In this document: one piece after another, positions 1-11,959 of the stretch
Layout: each line of letters starts with the position of its first letter
Numbering within the stretch: position 1 is the stretch's first letter
Notes under the pieces: generated by a model
Databases searched by the model: none
The model's input: only the letters and a program-made list of their open reading frames with translations
Told to the model about the DNA's origin: nothing
Position numbers and translations under genes: made by a program
UHGV virus genome: UHGV-0320335
DNA: 11,959 nt
DNA from: a virus
Direction: 5' to 3' (one strand)

Positions 1-108
1 AAGATACCCCGCGCTCAGTGTGGACTGATGTTCAGACGCCCATGCAGGCGCACCGGATACGGACAGACAGATGGCTGCGGACAAAATGGCTGCACAAACT
101 TTACGCAT
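1..108 (-). CDS. lom: Outer membrane protein Lom (Ail/Lom family), N-terminal 36 codons only; the rest of the gene lies beyond the window start
   Basis: Minus-strand ATG at 108 preceded by GAGAGG Shine-Dalgarno; translation MRKVCAAILSAAICLSVSGAPAWASEHQSTLSAGYL is a signal peptide plus mature N-terminus closely resembling lambda Lom as I recall it; located immediately downstream of J as in lambda. Confidence 0.8.
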   Translation of the reverse strand, partial: MRKVCAAILSAAICLSVSGAPAWASEHQSTLSAGYL

Positions 109-132
109 AATTACCTCTCGCTTTTCTGCAAT

Positions 133-156
133 AAAAAAGGCGCCATTTCTGGCGCC
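133..156 (-). terminator. Rho-independent terminator downstream of J
   Basis: Self-complementary GGCGCC (139-144) and GGCGCC (151-156) form a 6-bp GC stem with a 6-nt loop; on the minus strand the hairpin is followed by a run of 6 T (plus 133-138). Lies between the J stop (176) and lom start (108). Confidence 0.6.
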
Positions 157-175
157 CGTATATGGGTTATAAAAT

Positions 176-3100
176 TCAGCTGATACTGATGCCTGCGGTG
201 GCTTTCTTCATCACCACAACCAGCAAATCGCTGATACTTGCTGTGGGATACCAGTTATTCACCAGCCATGCTGACACCGAAAACTCCAGTGTCATGTGAC
301 CGTGACCGGCAGGCATATCAATAACACCACTGTAAATCAGCGTATTATCCAGCGCGGTACGGTTATAAATTTCAGCACCGTTTTTCCGCACTATCAGACG
401 GCATGAGGAGTAAATATCAGTATGCTCTTTCTCATGTTTAGCGCCGCTGAATGCCACCGCCGGAATAACAATCTGCCGGTCAAACGGCTGATCGTCATAA
501 ACCCTGACGGTAATGGTCCCTGATGGCCACCGCTCCGGTGCACGGGAGTCCCGGGGGAAAGCTTTGCCCACTGTTTTAACGAGATCGCCTTCAATCTGGT
601 TGGCGGACAGTTTTCCCAGAACCCGACAGTTTTCGTTAATCGTGACGTTGTTGAGCGTCCCGGAGTTCGCATTCACGTTACCGCTGATATCGGCATTTTT
701 CGCCGTCAGCCGCCCGTCCGGTGTCAGGGAAAATGCCGGAGGATTACCGCCACTGGTAATGGTGGGAGCCGTCAGGTATTTCAGGAACACTTCGTTCATG
801 AATATCTGATCGCCCTGACCAACAAACATCGGCTTTGTGTTGCCATTCGCAGGATTAATCATCGCAATCCGGTCAGCAGCCAGAAGCACCTGACTCTGCA
901 TACCTGCTGGCGTATTCTCAATACCGGCTCCGATACCCGCAATATAAAGGCGTCCGTCCTTCATCTGCTGCAGTTTCACGGCCCACATGCTGTTCAGGTT
1001 ATTATTTGTATCAACCTGAACTTTCTGTATCTGCTGGATTGCCGCGCTCTGATTTTCCAGTTTTTTATTGACGGTCTGCGTGATTTCATTGCTGACATTC
1101 GTAATGGACGTCCTGATTTCAGCCAGATCAGGCGCAAGCTGACCGTTATCAATCTGCGTCCACAACTCCTGAGCCAGATGGGTTTTCCCTATCTCTCCTT
1201 TGAAAAAATCCAGATAGCCGGATGCATCATCACTCGGCTGGCCAACAGCCTCCACAAATGCCGATTTGCCAACAGTATTCACACTGCGGATATAAAAATA
1301 ATAATCATGGCCCGGTTTGATATTGATACTGGCAGCTATCCAGTACAGCGCCGAGCCAAGATAGCGGGCTGCGGTTTCAACCTGCCTGATATCCGCAATC
1401 CGCTTTTCCGAGAACCAGAACTCAAACTGTACCGTCGGGTCATAAACGGCAAGATGCGGCGTGGCGGTTATCTGAAAATAGCCCGGCGTCAGCTCAATCC
1501 GCGACGGTGCTGCCGGTGCGGCAATCCGGAAGGTGGTGGTGGCAGGTTCACCCTGCTGGCCATAGCTGTTTATCGCCCGCACCGTCAGGGTGTATTCCCC
1601 GAGCGGCAGGCCGCTGAAACGGTGCTCCGTGTCTGCGGTGATGGCGGTGGTCACCAGTCTGGCATCCGTTCCCTTACCACTGGTCAGGCGCAGACTGAAG
1701 CGCACACCCTTCACCACCCGCGGCGTGTCCCATTTCGCCTGCGCCAGATACTGGCCGTCAGCTGCGCTCACCTCCACCGTCAGGTGCTGCACTGCCGGTG
1801 GGATGACGCTGTTCAGGGAACCTGACTGCGGCTCAAAGCGGGCACCGTTATCCACGATGGCTTCTTTTTCCGGTACGTGCTGCACCGCCGTGATGGCAAA
1901 GGTGCCGTCCGTGTTTTCCCGGACGGAGACACAGCGGAACAGGCGACGGCGCAGTGACGGCAGGGAGAGTCCCCACACCCCGTATGTCTCCACACCATCA
2001 GGCAGGGTACTGACCTGTATCCGGTCCGGCGCGGGGTGTTCGGTGATGTCCACACTCACCGGCTTACCGCTGCCGTTAATCAGGTTCACCGTGGCGGCAC
2101 CGGTCTCCGGAAGTGTCACTTCACGGTCCAGCGTCAGGGTGCGGGTGGCAGCATCAATGGACAGGACACGTCCGCCGGTCAGGGTCCCGGCATAGTCGTT
2201 ATCACAGATTTCAATGATGTCACCGGGTGTGTGCCGCAGCCCCTGAGACCCGAGCGTGAAATCCACCGTCTGCGTTTCCAGCAGTTCGGTCTTTATCACC
2301 CACAGTCCGGCACGGTGGGCCTGACCGCGGCTGGTACAGCCGAACGCGTCCATCTTCAGCAGGTTGCGTCCGTAGCGCAGTATGGCTTCCGGGTCTTCCA
2401 CCAGTTCCGTGGAGGTCTGCCAGCCGTTCTGCGGGTCGGTGTAATTCACCTCCACCGCCGTGTGCCGGTCCTTCAGGGCACTGAAGCTGTAGCGGAATCC
2501 CACGCCGTTATCATCCACCACCACATCGCTGTTGGTGTACGGCCACACCACATCCGACGGGCGGTCCTGAACGAACGTCAGCGTCTGACCGTTCCATACC
2601 GGCATACAGCGCATCGCAGAGCAGAAATCACTGAGAACGTCCCACGCCTTACGCTGTTGTGCCAGGTACGCATTAAAGGTCATCCGCGGCTCTGTCCCCC
2701 CGAAACCATCCGGGACCGTCTGGTCGCAGTACTGCCCGATGGCATACAGCGCCCACTTGTCCACATCCGCCGCCCCCAGACGTTTTCCCATGCCGTAGCG
2801 CGGGTGAGTCAGCATGTCCCACAGGCACCAGGCCGGGTTGTTGCTGTATGCTGGTTTCAGACTGCCGTCCCAGATACCACTGTACGTGCGTTTTTCCGGG
2901 TCATAGTTTGACGGCACCTGGATGATGCGACCGCGGATATGGTAGTTCACCGTCATCTGCTGGCCGCCGAACTGCTCCGCATCCACCTGCAGCCCCACAA
3001 TGGCCGTGTTCGGGTAGCACTGTTTCACATCGATGATTTCGGTGTATGACGACCACAGCGTCTTATTCTGCAGCTGGTCCGTGGTGCTGTCCGCCGTCTC

Positions 3101-3649
3101 CCTGACCATCCGGATGTTAAAGGGCCGGGGAGGCAGATTATCCAGAATCACCGAGGCCAGGAACTGTGAGGTGGTCTTGCCGTTAATGGTGACGTCCTTT
3201 TCCGTCACCCAGCGGCCATTACGCTGTAACTGAATCAGAATCCGGACAGAGGAAGGATTACGGTCGCCCTTTGACGTGGTCTGCACCAGTGACTGCACCC
3301 CGAAGGTAACCCGCAGGCGGTCAATGTTCGCGGACGTAATGGTGCGCGTCACCGGTTTTGCCTTCGTCACTTCCACGCCCAGTCCGGTTTCAGCTCCGGA
3401 GGACTCAAAGCCTTCCGGTGGTGTCTGCTCCTGCTCCCCGGCGCGCCAGACCGCCGTCACACCGTGTATCACGGGATTACCGTCCGTGTCCGTCAGCGGG
3501 GTTTTGTTCACCAGAATACTCTGCAGGCCTTTCACCGGGCCTTCTATCGGTCCCTCACCAATCGCATCAATCACGCTCATCATCTGCGTGGATTTGAGAT
3601 TGTCTTTCGCCTCACGCGGTGTGTGCGCCTTGCCGCCACCTTTGCCCAT
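176..3649 (-). CDS. J: Host specificity protein J (central tail fibre / tail tip protein), 1157 aa
   Basis: ORF translation begins [39 protein letters not shown], recognisably lambda gpJ-like along its length; AAGAGGTGA Shine-Dalgarno upstream of the ATG at 3649; last gene of the tail cluster as in lambda. Confidence 0.95.
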
Positions 3650-3680
3650 TACATCACCTCTTACCGTGATAATTGTTCAC

Positions 3681-3714
3681 TCACAAAAACAACAGGCACC
3701 TCACCGGGTGCCTG
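3681..3714 (-). terminator. Terminator-like hairpin plus U-rich tract about 30 nt upstream of the J start codon
   Basis: Stem CAGGCACC (3693-3700) pairs with GGTGCCTG (3707-3714), 8 bp, 6-nt loop; on the minus strand it is followed by TTGTTTTTGTGA (plus 3681-3692). Confidence 0.4.
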
Positions 3715-3752
3715 CGTCATGACGGAATAAAATTTCTGAATATCTTCACATT

Positions 3753-3780
3753 TTCACACACTGACTGTGGCGCTTATAAT
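3753..3780 (+). promoter_or_regulatory. Candidate sigma70 promoter on the strand opposite the tail genes
   Basis: -35-like TTCACA (3753-3758), 16-nt spacer, perfect -10 TATAAT (3775-3780); AT-rich upstream region; TTCACA is tandemly duplicated (3745-3750 and 3753-3758). Confidence 0.3.
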
Positions 3781-3787
3781 TTCGCTG

Positions 3788-3884
3788 CGTTAGTGTTTTT
3801 TTGCCCGAGTAACAAAAACAACTCCTTCACATTGATCTTCATTTGTCTGTCCCCGCAGCTCCGCGATCACTGCGGGATTTTTTT
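3788..3884 (+). ncRNA. Candidate small RNA of about 100 nt in the I-J spacer, antisense to the tail operon; function unknown
   Basis: Bounded by the promoter-like element above and a plus-strand intrinsic terminator; no start codon with a ribosome-binding site inside. Prediction from sequence motifs only. Confidence 0.25.
3852..3884 (+). terminator. Rho-independent terminator on the plus strand
   Basis: Stem CCCGCAG (3852-3858) pairs with CTGCGGG (3870-3876), 7 bp, 11-nt loop, followed by A and a run of 7 T (3878-3884). The T-run is on the plus strand only, so it terminates plus-strand transcripts. Confidence 0.5.
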
Positions 3885-3889
3885 ATGTT

Positions 3890-4570
3890 TTATCCCTGTC
3901 GCCCGATAACCACGACCTTTCCGCCCCCGCCTTCATCACGGGTGCTGATGTCCTGGGATATACGGCGGGAGCCAACCAGCATTTCCCCGTAAGGCACCGG
4001 CATCGGGTTCCCCTGGGCAATCATGTTATCCAGCGAGGAAAAGTACGTGTTCTGTCTGCCGTTATCCGTTGCGCGGTAATCCGGTGTTTTTGCCTTCGGG
4101 GCCAGCATCTGGGCCACACCGCCCAGAATCATGCTGGCTCCAAGTGAAAACAGCATCGTGGTGGCAGAAAAACCACCGGCTGCCAGGGCTGAACCCCATA
4201 ACGCCATTGATGCCCCGGCAGTGAAGAAAGAGCCCACGATGGCTGCCGCCCCCAACACAATCTGCAGTCCACCCTTTCCGGCCCCGGCCAGTCGCGGCAC
4301 AATGTGGATGACCGTTCCCTCACCCAGCTGTTCGTGAAGGCGGGCGTACACCACCTCCGGTGCCGTGTCTTCACCGGCAATACGTATCTGGTACCAGCCT
4401 TCGTTCATCTGAAGGCGGAATCCCGGCATCTGCATCGACAGGGCACGGATGGCTTCCGCTGCCGTGTTCACATACAGGCTGAGGCGGCGGCCAAATCGTT
4501 GTAAATCCCCGTGAAGGCAGATGTGTGCCAGTGGCGGTGACGCCAGACAGAATGCGTTCGTCGTTGCCAT
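3890..4570 (-). CDS. I: Tail tip assembly protein I, 226 aa
   Basis: Translation MATTNAFCLASPPLAHICLHGDLQRFGRRL... with Gly/Ala-rich hydrophobic middle and C-terminal ...GGGGKVVVIGRQG, lambda gpI-like; position between K and J. Confidence 0.9.
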   Translation of the reverse strand: MATTNAFCLASPPLAHICLHGDLQRFGRRLSLYVNTAAEAIRALSMQMPGFRLQMNEGWYQIRIAGEDTAPEVVYARLHEQLGEGTVIHIVPRLAGAGKGGLQIVLGAAAIVGSFFTAGASMALWGSALAAGGFSATTMLFSLGASMILGGVAQMLAPKAKTPDYRATDNGRQNTYFSSLDNMIAQGNPMPVPYGEMLVGSRRISQDISTRDEGGGGKVVVIGRQG

Positions 4571-5211
4571 TTTTCGGAATACCTCTCCCGTTTACTCAGT
4601 TGTTCAGGAATATGGTGAAGCAGTTCACCGTTGCCGCAGTATATGGCGGCATGATTGGCCACCGATGCGCCAAAGCAGCACAGCAGGATATCGCCAGGCT
4701 GTGCGGAAGGCAGGGAAATCCTGTAAAAACCAGTCGCCTCCATATTGTCCAGGTACAGGTTCTGACCGTTGCGCCACCAGTCATCCTCACGCTCAAAATC
4801 CGGCATATCAATTCCCGCCAGATGGTAGGCATCCCGGAACAGCGTGTAACAGTCCGTCACCCCGTGCTCAAAGCGCCGTCCTGTCAGATGTGGCACACAG
4901 CGGAATTTATGAATTTCCCCCCGGCAGACCAGCCACCAGGACAGTGCACTTTTTATCTGCAGCCGCCGGTCGGCCTCGCTCAGCCAGGGCAGACCACCGG
5001 GATGACTGTGGACCAGTGCCACAATCTCCCCCTGCATCTCTGCCCGCAGCCAGTCTTCCGGTGCAATACGAAAATACGCCTCCGGCTCTGCAGAGATATT
5101 CACACAAGGGATATACCGCTCCCCCTCCTGCGTTCTCACCACGAAGCCGCACGACTCCGCAGGCACACACCGCCAGGCATGCGCCAGAATCGCTGATTCT
5201 GTCTGTGTCAT
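4468..5211 (-). CDS. K: Tail tip assembly protein K, with an N-terminal JAMM/MPN-like domain and a C-terminal NlpC/P60-like domain, 247 aa
   Basis: Translation MTQTESAILAHAWRCVPAESCGFVV...; contains HSHPGGLPWLSEAD (HxH-x7-S-x2-D JAMM motif) and downstream Cys (GVTDCYTLF) and His (NHAAIY, LLHH) consistent with an NlpC/P60 triad; start is 5 nt after the L stop; 3' end overlaps I by 103 nt in another frame. Confidence 0.9.
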   Translation of the reverse strand: MTQTESAILAHAWRCVPAESCGFVVRTQEGERYIPCVNISAEPEAYFRIAPEDWLRAEMQGEIVALVHSHPGGLPWLSEADRRLQIKSALSWWLVCRGEIHKFRCVPHLTGRRFEHGVTDCYTLFRDAYHLAGIDMPDFEREDDWWRNGQNLYLDNMEATGFYRISLPSAQPGDILLCCFGASVANHAAIYCGNGELLHHIPEQLSKRERYSEKWQRRTHSVWRHRHWHTSAFTGIYNDLAAASACM

Positions 5212-5216
5212 TGGAT

Positions 5217-5915
5217 TTACTGCGAAAGTTTGTTAATGGAAAGGAAACCGCCAAAATTGCCGACATTCCTGCGCAGTTCACACCCGCGCATGCACTTGCT
5301 GCATCTGTCCTTACGGATATCCGTGGTGGGGTTGTCGAACTCATCCGCCACCGCAGGACCGTTATACCCGCATTCATCTCCCCGGTAATCCCACATACAG
5401 GTGTTCGCCAGCATGATGCGACCGGGAAACAGCGCCCCGTCCGTCTCGGTCGGTGTGGCCAGCACAAACGAGGCCGTCATGGCTGTCAGCTGCGACATCT
5501 GCTCCACCACCCAGCGGTCACTCAGCTCCTGCTCCGGGTCCGCCTCCGGATTGCCCGCAACGAAATTCACCGCATCCAGAAAACGGGCATACACCCGGCG
5601 GCGGACCACCGTGGCCCCCACCAGACTCTGCAGGTCCTCCGCCATCCCGGTGACAAGGCCAAACAGATTGGACACCGTCAGCGACGGGCGGGCACTGCTG
5701 CCCCGGCCGTTCATCTCAAAGCCGCTGCCGTCAATCGGGTATGCCTCATACTTACGCCCCTGCCAGGTGACCGGCTCCCCTTTTTCATTCAGCTCATTAC
5801 AGAAAAAATACCGCTCACCGCCCTGTACCATCAGGTCGATTTCCCAGAGTACCACCCGCGGTGACTGCTCTGATTTAACCGACTCGTTCAGACTTTCTTC
5901 GTGAATATCCTGCAT
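5217..5915 (-). CDS. L: Minor tail (tail tip) protein L, 232 aa
   Basis: Translation MQDIHEESLNESVKSEQSPRVVLWEIDLMVQGGERYFFCNE..., lambda gpL-like; C-terminal four-Cys cluster (ECG...RCSKCMRGC); start codon overlaps the M stop (TGATG, sharing one base). Confidence 0.9.
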   Translation of the reverse strand: MQDIHEESLNESVKSEQSPRVVLWEIDLMVQGGERYFFCNELNEKGEPVTWQGRKYEAYPIDGSGFEMNGRGSSARPSLTVSNLFGLVTGMAEDLQSLVGATVVRRRVYARFLDAVNFVAGNPEADPEQELSDRWVVEQMSQLTAMTASFVLATPTETDGALFPGRIMLANTCMWDYRGDECGYNGPAVADEFDNPTTDIRKDRCSKCMRGCELRRNVGNFGGFLSINKLSQ

Positions 5916-6256
5916 CAGTTCACCACCTGCTCAATCGTACAACTGAAATCACTGTACCTGGCGTTATCTGTGACGCTCCACTCCCGGCATACCACCCTCA
6001 CCGTCCGGTTATGTTTCGGCGGTCGCCACAAAAAGGCACGGTAACCACCATGCCACGATAAAAACTCTTCCAGCCATCGCCGGGTCGCCTCATCCGTCAC
6101 CCGGAACACCGCCTGAAACGTCTTCAGTCGGGCATTAAGTCCCGTCGGGCGGCGCTGTTCATAACCGTCACCAAACCGTACCCTCGCCACCGACGGTTTC
6201 TCACTCACCTGCATCCCTTCACGCGGGACCAGATGCAGCGTTTTTATCTCAGCCAC
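5915..6256 (-). CDS. M: Minor tail protein M, 113 aa
   Basis: Translation MAEIKTLHLVPREGMQVSEKPSVARVRFGDGYEQRRPTGLN..., lambda gpM-like; start overlaps the H stop by 8 nt; synteny H-M-L. Confidence 0.9.
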   Translation of the reverse strand: MAEIKTLHLVPREGMQVSEKPSVARVRFGDGYEQRRPTGLNARLKTFQAVFRVTDEATRRWLEEFLSWHGGYRAFLWRPPKHNRTVRVVCREWSVTDNARYSDFSCTIEQVVN

Positions 6257-9200
6257 TCAGCATTCCTCCGTCACGTCGCATGGACAGCATCACCGCCTGC
6301 ACCCGCTGGTCAATCAGTTGCACAAGGCTGCCCGCAGCTTCCGGCCCTATCTGGCCATTAGTCCCGTCATTCTGAATGGCGATATGGTAGACCGGGGAAT
6401 ACACCAGACCTGCACTGCCGTTCATACTGCCCACCGCTCGCACACCCAGCGAGCCATCCGCCGCCCGGGTCAGGGGCATAATGGCTTCAGGACCGGCCTC
6501 CCCCATCAGTCCCGCCCCTTTTGCAAAGGCAAAGTACGTGGGCGTATCCACAATACTGTTGCTGTACGCACTCAGGTTTGCCGAGGTATACACCCCGCCT
6601 TTTGCATTGGCCACCGCACCGCCCAGCCAGCTACCAATACTGCCGATAAATCCTCCCGCTCCGGACATACTGTTTGCCGCCGTCTTGATCCCGTTGACAA
6701 TCGCGGCATTCATAAGAACTTTTGATATTTCCTGCAGCACTGATGAGGCCCAGCTGCGCCATTCCACTTTATTTCCGTTCAGCATCTCCGTGATGTTATT
6801 CACCATCCCTGAGATACCCTCCGTCGCCAGCTGTGCTGCCTGTGAGGCGTAATCGGACGCATTATCCACCCAGTTACTGAATCCCTCCTGCAGCCCTTTC
6901 TGCCAGTCCGCACGCTGCACATCCGATTCGGCATAAAAGGCTTCCTGCTCTTTCAGACGTTCACTCAGATACTGCGCGTTCTGTGCCAGAGCCTGTCTGT
7001 AAAAATCCTCACTGATATCCCCGGTCTGATACTGAGACTGAAGGTCCGCATCCTTCTGGCGGAAACTGTCGCGGATCTGCTGCAACTCCCGCATGCGTTC
7101 ACGGAGCCGCTCTCCCTGCCCGTACCCCAGCAGTTCCGCTTCATTTGATGCACGCGCAGCCACATTATCATTCTTCAGGGTCTCTTCCCGGGACCGCAAC
7201 TGCTCCCGGATTTTTTGCTGGTCAATCAGGGCCGCATTGCGCAGCAGTTCCTGCTTCTGCATCTCCGTCAGGGTTTTCAGTTCGCCCTGCGCAGTCTGGT
7301 ATTTCAGCTTCGCCAGCTCTGTATTCTGCCCCGCAAGTGCCAATTGCTCTTTCTGCTGCTTCAGCAGCCGGGAAAAACTGTCTTCCGCTTTTTCCGTCTC
7401 TGATTTTCCACCCCGGGATTTGGGTTTATTCGCCTCGTTATTGCGCCAGGCTTCCAGGGCATTACTGATATAACGTTGTCTCGCCTCCTGATACGGTTCA
7501 CCCACAAAACCGAGGTCATCCGCCGCATACCCCAGTCGGACACGCTCTTTTTCTTCCCCTTTCAGTCTGGACAGGGCCAGCTCACGCTCTGTTTTTGTCA
7601 GGGCACTCTGCTGTTTATCATCCAGAGTGGCCTGTGGCAGCCGTAACGGCACATTCACCAGTCCCTGCCGCTGCTGAAGCAGTTCATTACCCAGCCCCAG
7701 CAGACGGTTGAATTCCGTATGCTGACCGTTCATAACCAGCATGGACTGGTACACCTTATTCTGCTCTGCCGCCTGCTGACGAATTAACGCCACACGACGG
7801 TCTTCCAGCCCGGCAAGCACATCCTGAATGGACTGCGCTTTTTCCTGCATCTGTGCCAGACGGGACTGCTCAACGGCAAGCTGCTCTGTTGCCTGAGAAA
7901 GCCCTTCCGTCACGGTCTTCACCGATGTCAGATGGTTTATCATGAATCCGTCACCGGTTGTCCAGCCAGGGTTAGCCAGAACATACTGATATCCAGCGAT
8001 TTTTTCCTGCAGGGATTTCACCCGGCTGGCCTGTTCATCAATCAGCCGGTTCTGCTCTGCCAGCGCCGCCCGTGTTCGTCCTTCATTATCTGAGGCTTCA
8101 GGCAAAGACATTGACAGCGTTTTATGCGCGATTTCATCTATCGTCAGTGCATACTGGCGCGCTGACTCCCTGGCCTGCTCCTGATTCTGGTACAGCGTAT
8201 ACCATGCTGCTGCCCCCAGCATCACCAGTCCGGGTACGCCACCAACCAGTCCCAACGCACCAGTCATCAGACGTGAGCCCACCGCCGTTGTACTGTTCAG
8301 CGCATTCTGGGCTGCGGTTCTGGCAGCAATATTTCTGTTCAGGCGTTCCTGTGTGGCCGCCAGACGGGCTTCTGCAGCAATCTGCATCTCCGTCCCGCGG
8401 GCTGCCGCCACAGCCTGCTGTGCACAGTACACGGCTGCCCTTGCCCGCGCCGTGGCAATCTGCGTCCCCCTGAGCTGTGCTTCCGCCAGTGCCACTTCAT
8501 TACGTGCTGCCGTCACAAGTCCTGCCGTGGCAGACACCGCTCCGGAGGCCATATTGCCAAAGTACCGGGCAACCCCGACGGCAACCAGCGCCCCAGCGGC
8601 TGTTGCCACATTATCAATATTACCGGCAACACCGTTCAGCACGCCGGAGAGCGTTTTCGTCGCTCCGCTGGCTTCATTCGCGCCACCCACCCAGGCCATA
8701 AAGGCGTTTTCCACCTTTGTGATCCCGTCAGAGACCGTTTCCGGCATGGCGGCATATTCATCACGCAATACCCCCAGCTGGCTGATTAACGCAGGAACGA
8801 CTTTATCCGCCGTCAGTTTGCCGTCGTCCGCCATCGCCTTAAGGTCTTTACGGGCCACGCCCATACCCGCAGCCAGTGCACGTACGATCCGGTCTCCGCT
8901 TTCATTGACCGAATTAAATTCCTCACCGCGTAACACACCCTGTGCCAGCGCCTGGCTGAACTGGGTGATCACCGAGCCCGCCTCTGCCGTACTGGCACCG
9001 GAGATTTTCAGCCCCGTGGAAATGGCCTCCGTCACCTTCAGCACATCATCAGCACTGTAACCATATTCACGCATTGAGGCTGCCGAGCGGGCAAACAGGG
9101 CCGCATTATCTGAAAATGCCGTGCCCGTCCGCTGGCTGATATCCATCAGCACTTTCTGTGATGACGAAAATTCATCGGATGACTGCGACGCCTGTTTCAG

Positions 9201-9491
9201 TCGGGCATTCACGGAACTCCATTCATCGGCCAGAGAAATCAGGTGTCCGGTGGCAAAGGCACCTGCAAATGCCCCCGCCGTTCCGGCAGCTGAAGCGCGG
9301 ATTTCCGTCAACTGGCTGTTCAGCTCAGCCAGGGCGCGTCGCTGCTCCCGGGCGACTGCGGCAGCCTGACGCCCGCCATTCTGCAGGGTCCGGTAATATT
9401 CACTGCCCATGCGGGAAGCCCGCTGGATCTCCGACTGGAATGACTGCGAATTTGCCGAAATTTTGATAATCAGTTCACGTAACGTCACCAT
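6249..9491 (-). CDS. H: Tail tape measure protein, 1080 aa
   Basis: Long Ala/Gln/Glu/Arg/Leu-rich, coiled-coil-like protein with an internal hydrophobic Gly-rich segment (TGALGLVGGVPGLVMLGAAAWY) and C-terminal ...IAIQNDGTNGQIGPEAAG...MRRDGGMLSG resembling the lambda gpH C-terminus; AAGGTG Shine-Dalgarno before the ATG at 9491; position between G-T and M. Confidence 0.9.
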   Translation of the reverse strand: MVTLRELIIKISANSQSFQSEIQRASRMGSEYYRTLQNGGRQAAAVAREQRRALAELNSQLTEIRASAAGTAGAFAGAFATGHLISLADEWSSVNARLKQASQSSDEFSSSQKVLMDISQRTGTAFSDNAALFARSAASMREYGYSADDVLKVTEAISTGLKISGASTAEAGSVITQFSQALAQGVLRGEEFNSVNESGDRIVRALAAGMGVARKDLKAMADDGKLTADKVVPALISQLGVLRDEYAAMPETVSDGITKVENAFMAWVGGANEASGATKTLSGVLNGVAGNIDNVATAAGALVAVGVARYFGNMASGAVSATAGLVTAARNEVALAEAQLRGTQIATARARAAVYCAQQAVAAARGTEMQIAAEARLAATQERLNRNIAARTAAQNALNSTTAVGSRLMTGALGLVGGVPGLVMLGAAAWYTLYQNQEQARESARQYALTIDEIAHKTLSMSLPEASDNEGRTRAALAEQNRLIDEQASRVKSLQEKIAGYQYVLANPGWTTGDGFMINHLTSVKTVTEGLSQATEQLAVEQSRLAQMQEKAQSIQDVLAGLEDRRVALIRQQAAEQNKVYQSMLVMNGQHTEFNRLLGLGNELLQQRQGLVNVPLRLPQATLDDKQQSALTKTERELALSRLKGEEKERVRLGYAADDLGFVGEPYQEARQRYISNALEAWRNNEANKPKSRGGKSETEKAEDSFSRLLKQQKEQLALAGQNTELAKLKYQTAQGELKTLTEMQKQELLRNAALIDQQKIREQLRSREETLKNDNVAARASNEAELLGYGQGERLRERMRELQQIRDSFRQKDADLQSQYQTGDISEDFYRQALAQNAQYLSERLKEQEAFYAESDVQRADWQKGLQEGFSNWVDNASDYASQAAQLATEGISGMVNNITEMLNGNKVEWRSWASSVLQEISKVLMNAAIVNGIKTAANSMSGAGGFIGSIGSWLGGAVANAKGGVYTSANLSAYSNSIVDTPTYFAFAKGAGLMGEAGPEAIMPLTRAADGSLGVRAVGSMNGSAGLVYSPVYHIAIQNDGTNGQIGPEAAGSLVQLIDQRVQAVMLSMRRDGGMLSG

Positions 9492-9509
9492 TCACCTTTC
9501 TCCGGGCGT

Positions 9510-9530
9510 AAAAAAACCGCCTCAGCGGTT
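9510..9530 (-). terminator. Weak terminator-like hairpin plus U-tract between T and H
   Basis: AACCGC (9515-9520) pairs with GCGGTT (9525-9530), 4-nt loop; on the minus strand followed by a run of 5 T (plus 9510-9514). Short stem, so low confidence. Confidence 0.3.
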
Positions 9531-9538
9531 CTCATCAT

Positions 9539-9853
9539 TCATGACTGTGCTGCAAAGCTCAGCGCGTCTTCCAGCGCCGCAAACGGATCCACCTCCGGCT
9601 TATCCTCATCCTCGCCCCAGCAGAGCATGGCGTCCTTCAGTGCAACATTCATCCCCTGTGCCCCAAAAACCGCTTTCACGATCTGTGCATTACGGATATC
9701 CCCGCGCTCATCACCCAGCGGGGATACCCTGTCGAACTCCATCCACATCATCGCCTCGCTCACACTCAGGCTGTGCCGCAGTTCGGATAAGGTGCGCCCC
9801 AGACGGAGCGCAAGTCGCATCAGAAAGCGAATTTCCGGGCGGGCTACTTTTTT
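9539..9853 (-). CDS. T: T segment of the G-T tail assembly chaperone fusion, expressed by -1 programmed ribosomal frameshift from G
   Basis: ORF in the -1 frame relative to G, open from the slippery site through stop at 9539; contains MRLALRLGRTLSELRHSLSVSEAMMWMEF...; frame relationship verified base by base (G codons top coordinate 0 mod 3, T codons 1 mod 3). Confidence 0.75.
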   Translation of the reverse strand, partial: KKVARPEIRFLMRLALRLGRTLSELRHSLSVSEAMMWMEFDRVSPLGDERGDIRNAQIVKAVFGAQGMNVALKDAMLCWGEDEDKPEVDPFAALEDALSFAAQS

Positions 9854-10218
9854 CTGGCCGACTCTGCATCAGCGATCAGTTCCAGTGCCTGACGCAGCAA
9901 CCGGGCATGTACCGGACCATAGACGGCCAGCACCTGCTCACGGTCGTCCGGAGCGAACACCCGCTGCAGATCCGTATCACACAGGACATCGCAGAACAGC
10001 GTCACATCCGCTTCCAGGTTACGGCGGGTTTTCGCCACCACCGACAGGGTATCGTCATCCTCTCCATCACCATTGAGCACTTCCTGCCACAGATACCAGG
10101 CCTCTGCCGAAGGCTCCCGCAGCACCACGCTGACATTACCCCATTCCGGCACCTTCACCGTTTTATGACGAAACCCTGACAGTCTGGCCAGCGCCAGCGT
10201 TTTCAGATCCTTTTTCAT
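9844..10218 (-). CDS. G: Tail assembly chaperone G, about 124 aa
   Basis: Translation MKKDLKTLALARLSGFRHKTVKVPEWGNVSVVLREPSAEAWYLWQEVL...ESARKK; acidic protein directly downstream of V and upstream of the tape measure, ending at the frameshift site. Start 10218 is preferred over the track's 10266 because it lies 14 nt after the V stop (TAA 10235-10233) rather than overlapping V. Confidence 0.8.
   Translation of the reverse strand: MKKDLKTLALARLSGFRHKTVKVPEWGNVSVVLREPSAEAWYLWQEVLNGDGEDDDTLSVVAKTRRNLEADVTLFCDVLCDTDLQRVFAPDDREQVLAVYGPVHARLLRQALELIADAESARKK
9847..9853 (-). promoter_or_regulatory. -1 programmed ribosomal frameshift slippery heptamer A AAA AAG
   Basis: Minus strand reads AGA AAA AAG TAG in the G frame; heptamer A_AAA_AAG (plus-strand CTTTTTT at 9847-9853) lies 1 codon before the G stop, and the -1 frame continues GTA GCC CGC CCG GAA ATT CGC TTT CTG ATG... 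into T. Confidence 0.7.
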
Positions 10219-10232
10219 GATGCCCCATCCCC

Positions 10233-10949
10233 TTATCCGGCGGCTGCGCTCACTGTCACGGTGCATTCAACAGACGTCACACTCTGTGCTTTCTCTGCCG
10301 AATCGGTCACCACGCAGGTATATTTCCCCGCATCAGCGGACTGCGCACCTGGCTTACTGAAGGTGTCTGTCGTCTGCCCGTCAACCGGCTGACCATCCTT
10401 CTTCCAAGCGTATTTATACGGCGGCGTTCCCCCGTTGGCACTGACTGACATTGTCAGCAGCGCACCTGTATTCACGGTAAGTGTTTTATCCAGATTTTTC
10501 ACAAACGCCAGCGGTACCACAAAGGACACCGGTTTGCCTTTCATACGCAGTGAAAACGTTGCTGCCACCACGCCGTTGGTACCGGATGACCAGGTGTGCT
10601 GACGCACTTCCGCCAGGAACTTAAAGCCCTTACCGGACGGAAACAGCACCTTAAACGCATACAACGCGTCATTGTCATAGGCATCACGCAGGGCGTTCTG
10701 GGCCTGATTCAGATAAAAATTACCCGACATGGAAATCTCAGACGACGCCCCCAGACCGTTGATGTTCTCCTGCTCGGTGGAGCAGAGCGTGGTCACATCA
10801 ATATCCTGTTTCTGACCGGCGGTGAACTGGACTTCCTTGATGGTGCAATCCAGGCGCAGATATTCCGCCTTATCCATAGTTTCAGCAGTCGCCGGGGCAG
10901 ATGAAATCATCACCTGCGTCAGCTGTGAGCGTTCATACAAAGCAGACAT
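10233..10949 (-). CDS. V: Major tail (tube) protein with a C-terminal Ig-like domain, about 238 aa
   Basis: Start chosen at the internal ATG (10949-10947) preceded by AGGAGG Shine-Dalgarno (plus 10955-10960), giving MSALYERSQLTQVMISSAPATAETMDKAEYLRLDCTIKEVQF...; C-terminal ...GGTPPYKYAWKKDGQPVDG...AGKYTCVVTD... is a typical Ig-like fold signature; position upstream of G as in lambda. Confidence 0.85.
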   Translation of the reverse strand: MSALYERSQLTQVMISSAPATAETMDKAEYLRLDCTIKEVQFTAGQKQDIDVTTLCSTEQENINGLGASSEISMSGNFYLNQAQNALRDAYDNDALYAFKVLFPSGKGFKFLAEVRQHTWSSGTNGVVAATFSLRMKGKPVSFVVPLAFVKNLDKTLTVNTGALLTMSVSANGGTPPYKYAWKKDGQPVDGQTTDTFSKPGAQSADAGKYTCVVTDSAEKAQSVTSVECTVTVSAAAG

Positions 10950-10965
10950 TCTGCCTCCTGATAAT

Positions 10966-10986
10966 AAAAAACCCGCACGCGGCGGG
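10966..10986 (-). terminator. Terminator-like hairpin plus U6 immediately upstream of the V ribosome-binding site
   Basis: CCCGC (10972-10976) pairs with GCGGG (10982-10986), 5-nt loop; on the minus strand followed by TTTTTT (plus 10966-10971) and then the V Shine-Dalgarno. Short stem. Confidence 0.35.
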
Positions 10987-11013
10987 GTATGGTTTTGTAG
11001 AAAAAAGAAAAAG

Positions 11014-11358
11014 TCACACCGTGACCTGAAACTCCAGGGTTGCACGGTAACAGCGGTTTTCCGGAATATAGTCCTGCATTTCACTGACGGATCCCGGGGC
11101 CAGCAGCATTATGGCTTCACGGGCGTCCTGACGTATCTGACGCGCCTGCGTCACAGTCCCGGCATAAACGTCTATCTGCACCGACACTGAGGACTCCGCC
11201 TGCCCGCCCATCACGTCCGCTGACACCGATGAAATCAGGCTGAAAACCACCCACGGAAGCGCCACCGACGGCCTGCCATCCAGCAGGGGGACCACATACG
11301 GGTACACCTGCCCGCCGGCAAGATGCGCCAGATGAGGATACAAATCCGCCTCCGTCAT
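11014..11358 (-). CDS. Tail terminator / tail completion protein (U position), 114 aa; function assigned mainly by synteny
   Basis: ORF MTEADLYPHLAHLAGGQVYPYVVPLLDGRPSVALPWVVF... between the gp10-like gene and V; start ATG overlaps the upstream stop (ATGA), indicating translational coupling. Confidence 0.55.
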   Translation of the reverse strand: MTEADLYPHLAHLAGGQVYPYVVPLLDGRPSVALPWVVFSLISSVSADVMGGQAESSVSVQIDVYAGTVTQARQIRQDAREAIMLLAPGSVSEMQDYIPENRCYRATLEFQVTV

Positions 11359-11801
11359 CGTCTCAGTACCTCATCAATGGCCCGGTTCATCCGCGCAATC
11401 GCCACCTGAGCTGCCTGTTCACTGCGCACATCAAACGCCGGGCGCACAAACGGGTGCGGTGGCATATTCACAGTCCCCATTTCCACAAACCGCCAGTAGA
11501 AAGCATTGCGCGGGTTATCCGCCTTCATAGTGTTATCGCTGTTACCGGTGTCCGGATTAACACCACGGATATGGACACCGGATTCCATCCCGCCATCGCG
11601 GGAGCGCCGGGAAAGGATCACCACATTGCGGCGCAGTTTTCCCCTGCGTACCGGTGCCCGTGACACCACTTCTTCTTTCAGCACATTCGCACCCGCACGG
11701 GTTGCCTCACGCAGCACCCGGTTATTTTCCGCACCACTCAGAAGCTGCAAATCGCGGCTGATGTCCTCCAGCCCCGAAAAATCCAGCAGGGTTTCGATCA
11801 T
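11355..11801 (-). CDS. HK97 gp10-family head-tail joining / tail component protein (lambda Z position), 148 aa
   Basis: Translation MIETLLDFSGLEDISRDLQ...NAFYWRFVEMGTVNMPPHPFVRPAF... fits my recollection of the HK97 gp10 family; GGGAGGGG Shine-Dalgarno 4 nt upstream of the ATG at 11801. Confidence 0.7.
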   Translation of the reverse strand: MIETLLDFSGLEDISRDLQLLSGAENNRVLREATRAGANVLKEEVVSRAPVRRGKLRRNVVILSRRSRDGGMESGVHIRGVNPDTGNSDNTMKADNPRNAFYWRFVEMGTVNMPPHPFVRPAFDVRSEQAAQVAIARMNRAIDEVLRR

Positions 11802-11822
11802 TTTTCCCCTCCCAGCCGACCT

Positions 11823-11853
11823 GTCTCTTGATCAGATCTCCTGATCAAGAGAC
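11823..11853. repeat. Perfect 13-bp inverted repeat with 5-bp spacer (GTCTCTTGATCAG-ATCTC-CTGATCAAGAGAC) containing three GATC sites; 11821-11839 matches the Tn5/IS50 inside-end 19-mer
   Basis: Verified base by base; spans the stop codon (TGA, 11834-11832) of the upstream gene and sits 20-30 nt upstream of the gp10-like gene RBS. No T-tract on either side, so not a terminator. Confidence 0.8.
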
Positions 11854-11959
11854 TTCATCACCAGGTAACCCTCAACCATATCCTGAAGTCTGAACCAGCC
11901 ATCCCACATGACTACCCAACCGGGGCGACCGGTGCGTTTGCTGTCATGCCATCGCCCCA
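11832..11959 (-). CDS. C-terminal 41 codons of an upstream gene, probably a head-tail joining/connector-module protein; 5' end beyond the window
   Basis: Open minus-strand frame from the window edge translating ...GRWHDSKRTGRPGWVVMWDGWFRLQDMVEGYLVMKSLDQEI, stop TGA at 11834-11832; function inferred only from position upstream of the gp10-like gene. Confidence 0.5.
   Translation of the reverse strand, partial: GRWHDSKRTGRPGWVVMWDGWFRLQDMVEGYLVMKSLDQEI

What the first reader, a model, noticed from the sequence alone, without database searches (positions are those of the whole stretch)
11821..11853. Exact 19-bp match to the Tn5/IS50 inside end embedded in a perfect 13-bp palindrome with three clustered GATC sites
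Positions 11821-11839 read CTGTCTCTTGATCAGATCT, which matches the Tn5/IS50 inside-end 19-mer as I remember it. The flanking sequence does not continue as the IS50 transposase gene, and no second end or transposase is present in the window. The same bases are part of a perfect inverted repeat (13-bp arms, 5-bp spacer) that contains three Dam GATC sites within 17 bp and overlaps the stop codon of the upstream gene just ahead of the next gene's RBS. Possible explanations are a binding site for a dimeric DNA-binding protein, a Dam/SeqA-sensitive element, an RNA stem-loop affecting translational coupling or mRNA processing, or a footprint or engineering scar. A chance 19/19 match is very unlikely.
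Basis: partly seen in the sequence, partly recalled or inferred. Interest (0 to 1): 0.55.

Follow-up and report, generated by a model that had tools for sequence, protein, structure and literature searches.

The report
End of insertion sequence ISEc13 in prophage
The "Tn5 inside end" is the real terminal repeat of ISEc13, a known Tn5-like insertion sequence that has jumped into a prophage gene, and the window stops 139 bases into it, so this is an ordinary, already catalogued mobile element.

Summary
The exact 19-mer, the 13-bp palindrome and the three GATC sites are all present. The orphan-site reading is wrong. Homology to the E. coli E2348/69 / Stx-type lambdoid prophage stops exactly at 11820. 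From 11821 to the window end (139 bp) the sequence is 100% identical to the right end of ISEc13, an IS4-family, IS50-subgroup element found in about 3,000 complete E. coli genomes.

The "upstream gene" is the C-terminus of the ISEc13 transposase. That protein is 39% identical to Tn5 transposase, and its stop codon lies inside the terminal repeat in the same frame as in IS50. The reference E2348/69 prophage has the empty site, so this is a strain-specific new insertion 7 codons before the end of the head-closure gene.

The 19-mer is the transposase-binding end. Its last 14 bp are nearly invariant in relatives down to 44% protein identity.

The palindrome is the tip of that end repeated in inverted orientation inside the last transposase codons. 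In a large clade of relatives this inner copy is conserved at synonymous sites, so it is selected at the nucleotide level. I could not establish its function; an RNA or DNA hairpin and a second transposase contact both remain possible. Known element, low interest.

The parts
11821..11959 (-). Right-end (inside-end type) 139 bp of an ISEc13 copy, cut off by the window edge. The transposase reads on the - strand, the same direction as the phage tail genes.
   Evidence: 139/139 identical to the pMAR2 ISEc13 copy (L002 2504-2642). PGAP annotates these matches as 'IS4-like element ISEc13 family transposase'.
11821..11839 (+). 19-bp terminal inverted repeat (transposase-binding end), identical to the IS50/Tn5 inside end.
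   Evidence: The terminal 14 bp TGATCAAGAGACAG occur in 39 of 50 unique relatives' tails, and the full 19-mer in 7 unique tails.
11832..11959 (-). 3' end of the ISEc13 transposase gene: 41 codons plus the TGA stop at 11834-11832. The stop lies inside the terminal repeat in the same frame as in IS50.
   Evidence: Translation …HDSKRTGRPGWVVMWDGWFRLQDMVEGYLVMKSLDQEI*. NF033590 hit E = 6.8e-11. The full-length copy matches Tn5 transposase 1MUH/4DM0 at E about 7e-84 and is 39% identical to IS50L Tnp.
11823..11835 (.). Outer palindrome arm, equal to positions 3-15 of the terminal repeat.
11841..11853 (.). Inner palindrome arm: an inverted copy of the IS tip embedded in codons K-S-L-D-Q of the transposase.
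   Evidence: Codons TCT (34/38) and CTT (33/39) are fixed far beyond the other conserved degenerate codons of the gene, whose highest top-codon share is 68% across 121 columns.
11830..11846 (.). Three GATC (Dam) sites. Two are the same as in the IS50 inside end; the third is their mirror image in the inner arm.
   Evidence: Dam methylation of GATC in transposon ends inhibits transposase binding (PMC3347997 citing Yin et al. 1988). Applying this to ISEc13 is an inference.
11812..11820 (.). Insertion target CCAGCCGAC. This is the predicted 8-9 bp target duplication, whose other copy would lie beyond the far end of the IS, outside the window.
   Evidence: The empty site in E2348/69 reads …CCCAGCCGAC|AGAGAATTTCC. 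An 8-bp duplication flanks the E2348/69 chromosomal copy L003, and relatives show 8-10 bp. The duplication itself was not observed here.
11798..11820 (-). Last 23 nt of the prophage head-closure gene (final 7 codons plus stop, overlapping the gp10 start), separated from the rest of the gene by the IS.
   Evidence: E2348/69 annotation: head closure protein at L085 15798-16148, which corresponds to window 11798 onward.
11355..11801 (-). HK97-gp10 family head-tail gene immediately downstream of the IS. Its Shine-Dalgarno sequence GGGAGGGG is intact.
   Evidence: TIGR01725 E = 1.4e-22; annotations.

Best explanation
Positions 11821-11959 are the right end of a copy of ISEc13. ISEc13 is a 1550-bp IS4-family, IS50-subgroup insertion sequence. 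This copy has transposed into a lambdoid prophage of an E. coli E2348/69-like (O127:H6 EPEC) strain, 7 codons before the end of the head-closure gene and 19 bp upstream of the HK97-gp10 family gene.

The 19-mer is the terminal inverted repeat that the ISEc13 transposase binds and cleaves next to. It equals the IS50 inside end because this end sequence is strongly conserved across the IS50 subgroup. As in IS50, the transposase stop codon (ATC TGA) lies inside the repeat.

The two GATC sites shared with the IS50 inside end probably make binding Dam-sensitive, as in IS50. This is an inference.

The palindrome exists because positions 3-15 of the end are repeated in inverted orientation inside the last codons of the transposase gene. 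This inner copy is kept by selection on the nucleotide sequence in a large clade of relatives. It is therefore a functional part of the IS end, but which function it serves was not resolved here.

The window most likely ends inside the IS because it is a contig end at a multicopy repeat. This too is an inference.
For: 1. Homology to BP-4795 / Stx-type prophages ends at query base 221, which is window 11820. The three-way alignment shows window = phage up to 11820 and window = ISEc13 from 11821.
2. E2348/69 matches window 1-11820 with 8 SNPs and carries the empty site with an intact head-closure gene.
3. Window 11780-11959 hits 3357 records in 2989 of 5426 complete E. coli genomes, annotated 'IS4-like element ISEc13 family transposase'. 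The pMAR2 copy is 100% identical.
4. The full copy L002 2504-4053 is 1550 bp. Its other end is CTGTCTCTTATACACAAAT, 17/19 to the Tn5 outside end (outside-end and mosaic-end sequences from PMC3347997).
5. The transposase matches Tn5 transposase structures at E about 7e-84. Pfam finds Tnp_DNA_bind and DDE_Tnp_1 above their cutoffs, and Dimer_Tnp_Tn5 just below its cutoff (24.1 vs 26.7 bits). NCBIfam finds NF033590. Identity to IS50L Tnp is 39%.
6. The window's own 41-aa fragment hits NF033590.
7. Across 80 relatives the terminal 14 bp are nearly invariant.
8. The inner arm GTCTCTTGA is conserved at a fixed 35-38 nt from the end. Codon choice there is fixed (TCT 89%, CTT 85%, against at most 68% elsewhere). 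In the ISPlu9-like group, which lacks the hairpin, the Ser codon is kept but drifts to TCG/TCA and the Leu becomes Val (GTT/GTG).
Against: - The second IS end and the target duplication lie outside the window. This exact junction was not found in complete E. coli genomes, viral contigs or metagenome contigs, so the complete insertion is inferred from one junction.
- Dam sensitivity and transposase binding are inferred from IS50, not tested.
- No covariation can support a hairpin because the outer arm is fixed by its role as the end. Hairpin energies show no asymmetry between sense and antisense strands (p = 0.34).
Confidence: 0.95

Rival explanations
1. Function of the palindrome, version A. 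It forms a stem-loop in the transposase mRNA at the very last nucleotides of the element. This would give the transcript a defined, exonuclease-resistant 3' structure, or would modulate termination or re-initiation at the stop codon, whatever DNA flanks the insertion. It is compatible with the main explanation.
For: - The stem is stable: -21.6 kcal/mol in ISEc13 and -9 to -23 kcal/mol in 29 unique relatives.
- The inner arm is under selection at synonymous sites.
- The stop codon sits inside the structure.
- Inner position 13 is C or T in 23 of 27 unique tails, which allows G-C or G-U pairing in the sense RNA (counted).
- L025 converts an A·A mismatch into G·U through changes on both sides.
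- The same clade carries a clear inward-facing terminator at the other end, so RNA-level insulation is part of the design of these elements.
Against: - Sense and antisense folding energies do not differ significantly.
- It is not a terminator on either strand because there is no T-run.
- There is no Rfam match.
- Pairing beyond the 9-11 bp core is not consistently kept.
Confidence: 0.3
2. Function of the palindrome, version B. It acts at the DNA level. The inner inverted copy of the tip would be a second partial contact site for the transposase or for a dimeric host protein, or a cruciform or hairpin on single-stranded DNA, that tunes synapsis at this end. The three GATC sites would couple this to Dam methylation and replication.
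For: - What is conserved is identity to the end sequence (positions 3-11, often 13-14) at a fixed distance of 35-38 bp, while the loop sequence and the encoded C-terminal residues vary.
- In IS50, the inside end is a known site of Dam control (PMC3347997). From my own knowledge, it is also a site of Fis control.
- The absence of strand asymmetry fits a duplex-DNA role.
Against: - The inner copy lacks positions 15-19 of the 19-bp end, so it is not a complete transposase site.
- Most relatives have only one or two GATC sites, so a three-site Dam/SeqA cluster is not the conserved feature.
- No binding data exist.
Confidence: 0.25
3. An orphan IS50/Tn5 inside end: a transposon footprint, a mini-Tn5 or EZ-Tn5 engineering scar, or a remnant of Tn5 itself.
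For: Only the 19/19 identity to the IS50 inside end.
Against: - The adjacent 120 bp are ISEc13, not IS50. At the DNA level only the terminal 26 nt align between the two elements, and the proteins are 39% identical.
- No mosaic-end or outside-end sequence is present in the window.
- The same 35-nt end is present in wild ISEc13-clade elements of Scandinavium and Pantoea, and with one substitution in Klebsiella.
Confidence: 0.01
4. A conserved regulatory palindrome of this phage family at the head-closure/gp10 junction, with only a chance resemblance to IS50.
For: None found.
Against: - All 98 phage records lose homology at 11820.
- BP-4795, E2348/69 and 9 of 10 sampled contigs encoding the identical gp10 protein have the head-closure gene directly overlapping gp10, with no palindrome.
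Confidence: 0.005
5. An assembly chimera: the contig end was wrongly joined to a repeat, and no IS is inserted here.
For: - The window ends 139 bp inside a multicopy IS, and the far junction is unseen.
- The junction is absent from all searched collections.
Against: - The break falls exactly at the first base of the IS terminus.
- The empty site shares no sequence with the IS that could mislead an assembler.
- E2348/69-type strains carry about 30 ISEc13 copies, which suggests the element is or recently was active.
Confidence: 0.03

Closest known systems
ISEc13 (IS4 family, IS50 subgroup), as annotated by NCBI PGAP in E. coli E2348/69 and thousands of other genomes
   Same: The window is 139/139 nt identical over everything visible. 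It has the same terminal repeat, the same palindrome and the same transposase C-terminus.
   Different: Only the insertion site differs. This prophage position is empty in the E2348/69 reference and in all other records searched.
IS50 / Tn5 inside end (IE)
   Same: - Identical 19-bp end.
- The transposase stop codon ATC-TGA lies inside it in the same frame.
- Two GATC sites at positions 10-13 and 15-18.
- The opposite end of ISEc13 is outside-end-like (17/19) and keeps TTATACACA, which I recognise as the DnaA-box sequence (from my own knowledge).

   Different: - The transposases are only 39% identical, and there is no DNA similarity beyond the last 26 nt and one 75-nt core stretch.
- Behind the end, IS50 has a direct repeat (GATCAAGA-TCT-GATCAAGA), not the inverted copy. 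IS50 therefore has no 13-bp hairpin (sequence).
Inward-facing protection of IS10/IS50 transposase genes against outside transcription (fold-back inhibition, secondary structure of read-through transcripts; from my own knowledge of the Tn10/Tn5 literature)
   Same: Relatives of ISEc13 carry a hairpin plus T-run immediately inside the outside-end-like end. This shows that structured RNA elements overlapping the ends are part of this group's design.
   Different: That element is at the other end of the IS. The palindrome in the finding has no T-run and lies at the 3' end of the gene.

Membership tests
ISEc13 (specific insertion sequence) | Near-identical nucleotide sequence to catalogued ISEc13 copies, starting at the element's terminus | tested here: met
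   Window 11821-11959 is 100% identical to pMAR2 and other copies annotated 'IS4-like element ISEc13 family transposase'.
IS4 family, IS50 subgroup (De Palmenaer et al. 2008, PMC2266710) | Terminal consensus CW------Y---CA-A--W- with 5'-CT ends | tested here: met
   CTGTCTCTTGATCAGATCT has C1, T2, T9, C13, A14, A16 and T19 (compared with Table 1 read).
IS4 family, IS50 subgroup | DDE transposase with the Y-(2)-R-(3)-E-(6)-K motif | tested here: met
   Tested on the full-length ISEc13 copy. D93, D193 and E323, and Y316, R319, E323 and K330, are invariant in alignment A2 and align with Tn5 LAIEDTT / VCDREAD / YTHRWRIEEFHKAWK. The window itself shows only the last 41 residues.
IS4 family, IS50 subgroup | Element size 1350-1550 bp | tested here: met
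   Reference copies L002 and L003 are 1550 bp between the ends. This could not be tested for the window's copy because the window ends 139 bp into the element.
IS4 family, IS50 subgroup | 8-9 bp direct target duplication flanking this insertion | not testable with these tools
   The far junction lies outside the window, and the junction was not found elsewhere. The chromosomal E2348/69 copy has an 8-bp duplication and relatives have 8-10 bp.
IS50 proper / transposon Tn5 | IS50 transposase gene and outside end CTGACTCTTATACACAAGT | tested here: not met
   39% protein identity to IS50L Tnp. The other ISEc13 end is CTGTCTCTTATACACAAAT (17/19). No outside end is present in the window.
Engineered Tn5 mosaic-end scar | Mosaic end CTGTCTCTTATACACATCT, usually as an inverted pair around a linker | tested here: not met
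   No match with up to 3 mismatches in the window. The flank is natural IS sequence.
Intrinsic (Rho-independent) terminator | GC-rich hairpin followed by a T-run | tested here: not met
   No terminator-like site on either strand in 11300-11959. The hairpin is followed by AG plus flank on one strand and by TTCATCACC on the other.
Conserved intergenic element of the lambdoid / HK97-like head-tail module | Presence at the head-closure/gp10 junction in related phages | tested here: not met
   Absent from BP-4795, from the E2348/69 prophage and from 9 of 10 sampled contigs encoding the identical gp10. All 98 phage hits end at 11820.

The most novel reading that the evidence does not exclude
The inverted copy of the transposon tip inside the last codons of the transposase gene is a selected structural module of the ISEc13/Vibrio-type clade of IS50-like elements. 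It lies at a fixed 35-38 nt from the end and its synonymous sites are frozen. It would act as a hairpin or a second contact site that regulates transposase expression or end usage. In the same clade it is paired with an inward terminator at the other end and a preference for inserting into terminator-like palindromes. I found no description of this architecture in the papers searched, but ISfinder and the older subscription literature could not be searched.
Probability: 0.3. Interest if true: 0.4.

Novelty: already known. Interest (0 to 1): 0.15.

Why it matters
For the genome scan, this removes an apparent oddity. It is a catalogued insertion sequence sitting at a contig or window edge. The 19/19 match to the Tn5 inside end simply reflects how strongly IS50-subgroup ends are conserved.

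Biologically it records a recent, strain-specific ISEc13 hop that clips the head-closure gene of the prophage adjacent to nleA in an E2348/69-like EPEC strain. This may affect whether that prophage can still form particles.

The only point of wider interest is the nucleotide-level conservation of the subterminal inverted tip copy. It offers a cheap, testable handle on how Tn5-like elements regulate one of their ends.

Tried and rejected
- **Search for this exact insertion elsewhere, to obtain the second end and the target duplication.** No complete E. coli genome carries the junction; the best coverage of 11780-11959 was 89%, from chance extension into unrelated flanks. Both predicted junctions were absent from viral contigs and metagenome contigs. 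Ten contigs encoding the identical gp10 protein showed no IS at this site; nine had the uninterrupted junction.
- **Covariation test of the hairpin.** This is not informative because the outer arm is almost invariant. Position 15 shows G:C in ISEc13 and C:G in eight relatives, but many others are mismatched.
- **Sense versus antisense folding energies, to separate an RNA role from a DNA role.** No significant difference.
- **Terminator and promoter scans of the end.** Nothing on either strand. My reading of the sequence for an outward -35 (TTGATC) found no usable -10.
- **Rfam.** No family matched in the window.
- **A 92%-identical ISEc13-like hit (L096).** It is a decayed fragment with mutated ends and was uninformative.
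- **Nested insertions into the palindrome among the fetched loci.** None found.
- **Literature searches for ISEc13 and for IS4-family hairpin or terminator targeting.** These gave only catalogue mentions.

Full report
**1. The observation**

- The window reads CTGTCTCTTGATCAGATCT at 11821-11839. It is the only match with up to 3 mismatches, and none occurred in 200 shuffles.
- I checked the reference rather than trusting memory. A 199-nt stretch that I recalled from upstream of the Tn5 neo gene matched 244 natural plasmids at about 100%, next to aph(3')-IIa.
- In one of them (L004) the IS50L transposase frame, with its ochre codon, ends …AQGIKI* in AGATCTGATCAAGAGACAG, directly abutting the aph leader. 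This is the same 19-mer.
- Outside-end and mosaic-end sequences were taken from the oligonucleotide table of PMC3347997.
- The 13-bp perfect arms (11823-11835 and 11841-11853), the 5-nt spacer and the three GATC sites (11830, 11835, 11843) are as described.
- The hairpin folds at about -21.6 kcal/mol. The z-scores are -4.35 and -5.75 for the two strands of the 81-nt context.

**2. What it is**

A distant BLASTN of 11600-11959 against 50,697 phage records gave 98 hits. They include Stx-converting phages, BP-4795 and YYZ-2008. All listed top hits covered only query bases 1-221, and no record covered 80% of the query, so homology stops at window 11820, one base before the 19-mer.

A megablast of 11780-11959 against 5,426 complete E. 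coli genomes hit 3,357 records. The matches start at 11821 and are annotated 'IS4-like element ISEc13 family transposase'. The E2348/69 plasmid pMAR2 copy is 100% identical. The three-way alignment shows the switch directly: window = phage up to …CCCAGCCGAC, and window = ISEc13 from CTGTCTCTT onward, 139/139.

The complete ISEc13 copy (L002 2504-4053) has these properties:
- It is 1550 bp long.
- Its other terminus is CTGTCTCTTATACACAAAT, 17/19 to the Tn5 outside end.
- It encodes a 457-aa protein on the strand that reads toward the 19-mer.
- That protein matches Tn5 transposase structures (4DM0, 1MUH, 1MUS) at E about 7e-84 over its whole length.
- Pfam finds Tnp_DNA_bind and DDE_Tnp_1 above their cutoffs, and Dimer_Tnp_Tn5 just below its cutoff (24.1 vs 26.7 bits). 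NCBIfam finds NF033590.
- It is 39% identical to IS50L transposase.

The 41 codons visible in the window (…LVMKSLDQEI*) hit the C-terminal end of NF033590 at E = 6.8e-11. Its stop codon ATC-TGA lies inside the terminal repeat in the same frame as IS50's …AAG ATC TGA.

**3. Where it sits**

- Window 1-11820 is the tail region of a lambdoid/HK97-like prophage, all on the - strand: J, tail assembly proteins, tape measure, assembly chaperones, major tail protein, tail terminator and gp10.
- It matches the E. coli O127:H6 E2348/69 prophage adjacent to nleA with 8 SNPs in 11,820 bp.
- In E2348/69 the site is empty: …CCCAGCCGAC|AGAGAATTTCC. The head-closure gene (116 aa, …EILCRLGGEK*) overlaps the gp10 start.
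- The IS has therefore entered 7 codons before the end of the head-closure gene and 19 bp upstream of the gp10 ATG, leaving the gp10 Shine-Dalgarno sequence intact.
- Nine of ten sampled contigs encoding the identical gp10 protein have the uninterrupted arrangement.
- This junction was found in no complete E. coli genome, viral contig or metagenome contig.
- It is thus a strain-specific insertion. E2348/69 carries about 30 ISEc13 copies.
- That the window stops 139 bp inside a multicopy IS suggests a contig end. This is an inference.

**4. Why the 19-mer equals the IS50 inside end**

I collected 80 loci encoding relatives of the ISEc13 transposase, at 99% down to 42% identity, from one genome per species.
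- The last 14 bp, TGATCAAGAGACAG, occur in 39 of 50 unique tails.
- The full IS50 19-mer occurs in 7 unique tails, from Escherichia, Scandinavium, Pantoea, Klebsiella, Xenorhabdus and uncultured Gammaproteobacteria.
- Between ISEc13 and IS50, only these terminal 26 nt and one 75-nt core stretch align at the DNA level.

The identity therefore reflects strong constraint on the transposase-binding end within the IS50 subgroup. It does not indicate a Tn5 remnant. The end fits the subgroup consensus CW------Y---CA-A--W-, and the size and duplication lengths also fit (PMC2266710).

**5. The palindrome**

It is not specific to this insertion. The same 35 nt (AAGTCTCTTGATCAGGAGATCTGATCAAGAGACAG) are present in ISEc13 and in relatives with 73-77% identical transposases, although the codons just upstream differ.

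In the wider clade (about 49-57% identity; Vibrio, Shewanella, Alishewanella, Pseudoalteromonas, some Xenorhabdus):
- An inverted copy of the tip, (CT)GTCTCTTGA, is kept at a fixed 35-38 nt from the end.
- The loop and the encoded C-terminal residues vary, and some copies even have earlier stop codons.
- In a codon alignment of 56 distinct transposases, the Ser and Leu codons inside the arm are TCT in 34/38 and CTT in 33/39. The most biased of 121 other conserved, at least 3-fold degenerate columns reaches only 68%.

In the ISPlu9-like group, which lacks the hairpin, the Ser is kept but its codon drifts to TCG or TCA, and the Leu becomes Val (GTT/GTG). More distant relatives and IS50 itself lack the inverted copy. 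IS50 has a direct repeat of GATCAAGA instead.

The inner arm is therefore under nucleotide-level selection.

I could not determine what it does:
- It is not terminator-like on either strand.
- It has no Rfam match.
- Covariation is uninformative because the outer arm is fixed.
- Sense and antisense folding energies do not differ (p = 0.34).
- Weak hints for pairing in the sense RNA are the excess of C or T at inner position 13 (23/27) and one double change creating a G·U pair in L025.

My ranking is an mRNA 3' stem-loop (about 0.3), a DNA-level second contact or regulatory site (about 0.25), and otherwise unknown.

**6. GATC sites**

Two of the three are the IS50 inside-end sites. The third is their mirror image in the inner arm. 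Dam methylation of GATC sites in transposon ends inhibits transposase binding (PMC3347997 citing Yin et al. 1988). Extending this to ISEc13 is reasonable but untested. Most relatives have only one or two GATC sites at this end, so the triple cluster is not the conserved feature.

**7. Verdict**

The 'orphan site at a phage gene junction' reading is wrong. The feature is the right terminus of a known insertion sequence, newly inserted in a prophage. Novelty: already known. Interest is low (0.15). The only residual point is the selected but unexplained subterminal inverted tip copy.

Noticed in passing
L016 1095-1150; also L007, L018, L023, L027, L033, L040, L045, L048 (left ends); ISEc13 L002 4016-4041: In relatives of ISEc13 the outside-end-like left end (CTGTCTCTTATACACAAAT) runs straight into a GC-rich hairpin, then T7-8, then TTGAAC. 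This is an inward-facing intrinsic terminator in front of the transposase gene. The stems differ between relatives but stay complementary. ISEc13 itself keeps a hairpin (CACAAATCCCC/GGGGATTTGTG), but the T-run lies about 60 bp further in.
   Followed up: partly
Flanks of L011-L084 (e.g. L016, L028, L035, L041, L045, L048): Reconstructed empty target sites of the relatives are mostly terminator-like palindromes (e.g. aaaaggccGCTCGATAGcggctttttt), with the 8-10 bp duplication centred on the loop. The palindrome score is 6.4/12 against 3.0±1.5 for shuffles. The window's target and the E2348/69 chromosomal ISEc13 copy are not clearly palindromic.
   Followed up: partly
L059/L060, L025, L026, L002 flanks: Several copies lack matching target duplications. 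In L059 and L060, from the same genome, one copy's left flank matches the other copy's right flank. This indicates recombination between IS copies.
   Followed up: no
window 3294, 4328, 8426, 8995, 9487, 10223, 10407, 10956: These eight single-base differences, plus the IS insertion, are the only differences from the E2348/69 reference prophage over 11,820 bp. The source is therefore a very close relative of that EPEC strain.
   Followed up: partly
L002 2968-3385, + strand (antisense to the ISEc13 transposase): Five terminator-like sites lie on the strand antisense to the transposase gene, against 1.3 expected from shuffles (e.g. GGCGGGCTGCCCGCCCGCC TTTTTGCATC). They might stop transcription that enters from the right end.
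   Followed up: no
window 10233-11084 (- strand): The major tail protein reading frame has an Ig-like (Hoc-like / I-set) C-terminal domain. The mechanical ORF (283 aa, GTG start) is longer than the 237-238 aa product annotated in related genomes.
   Followed up: no
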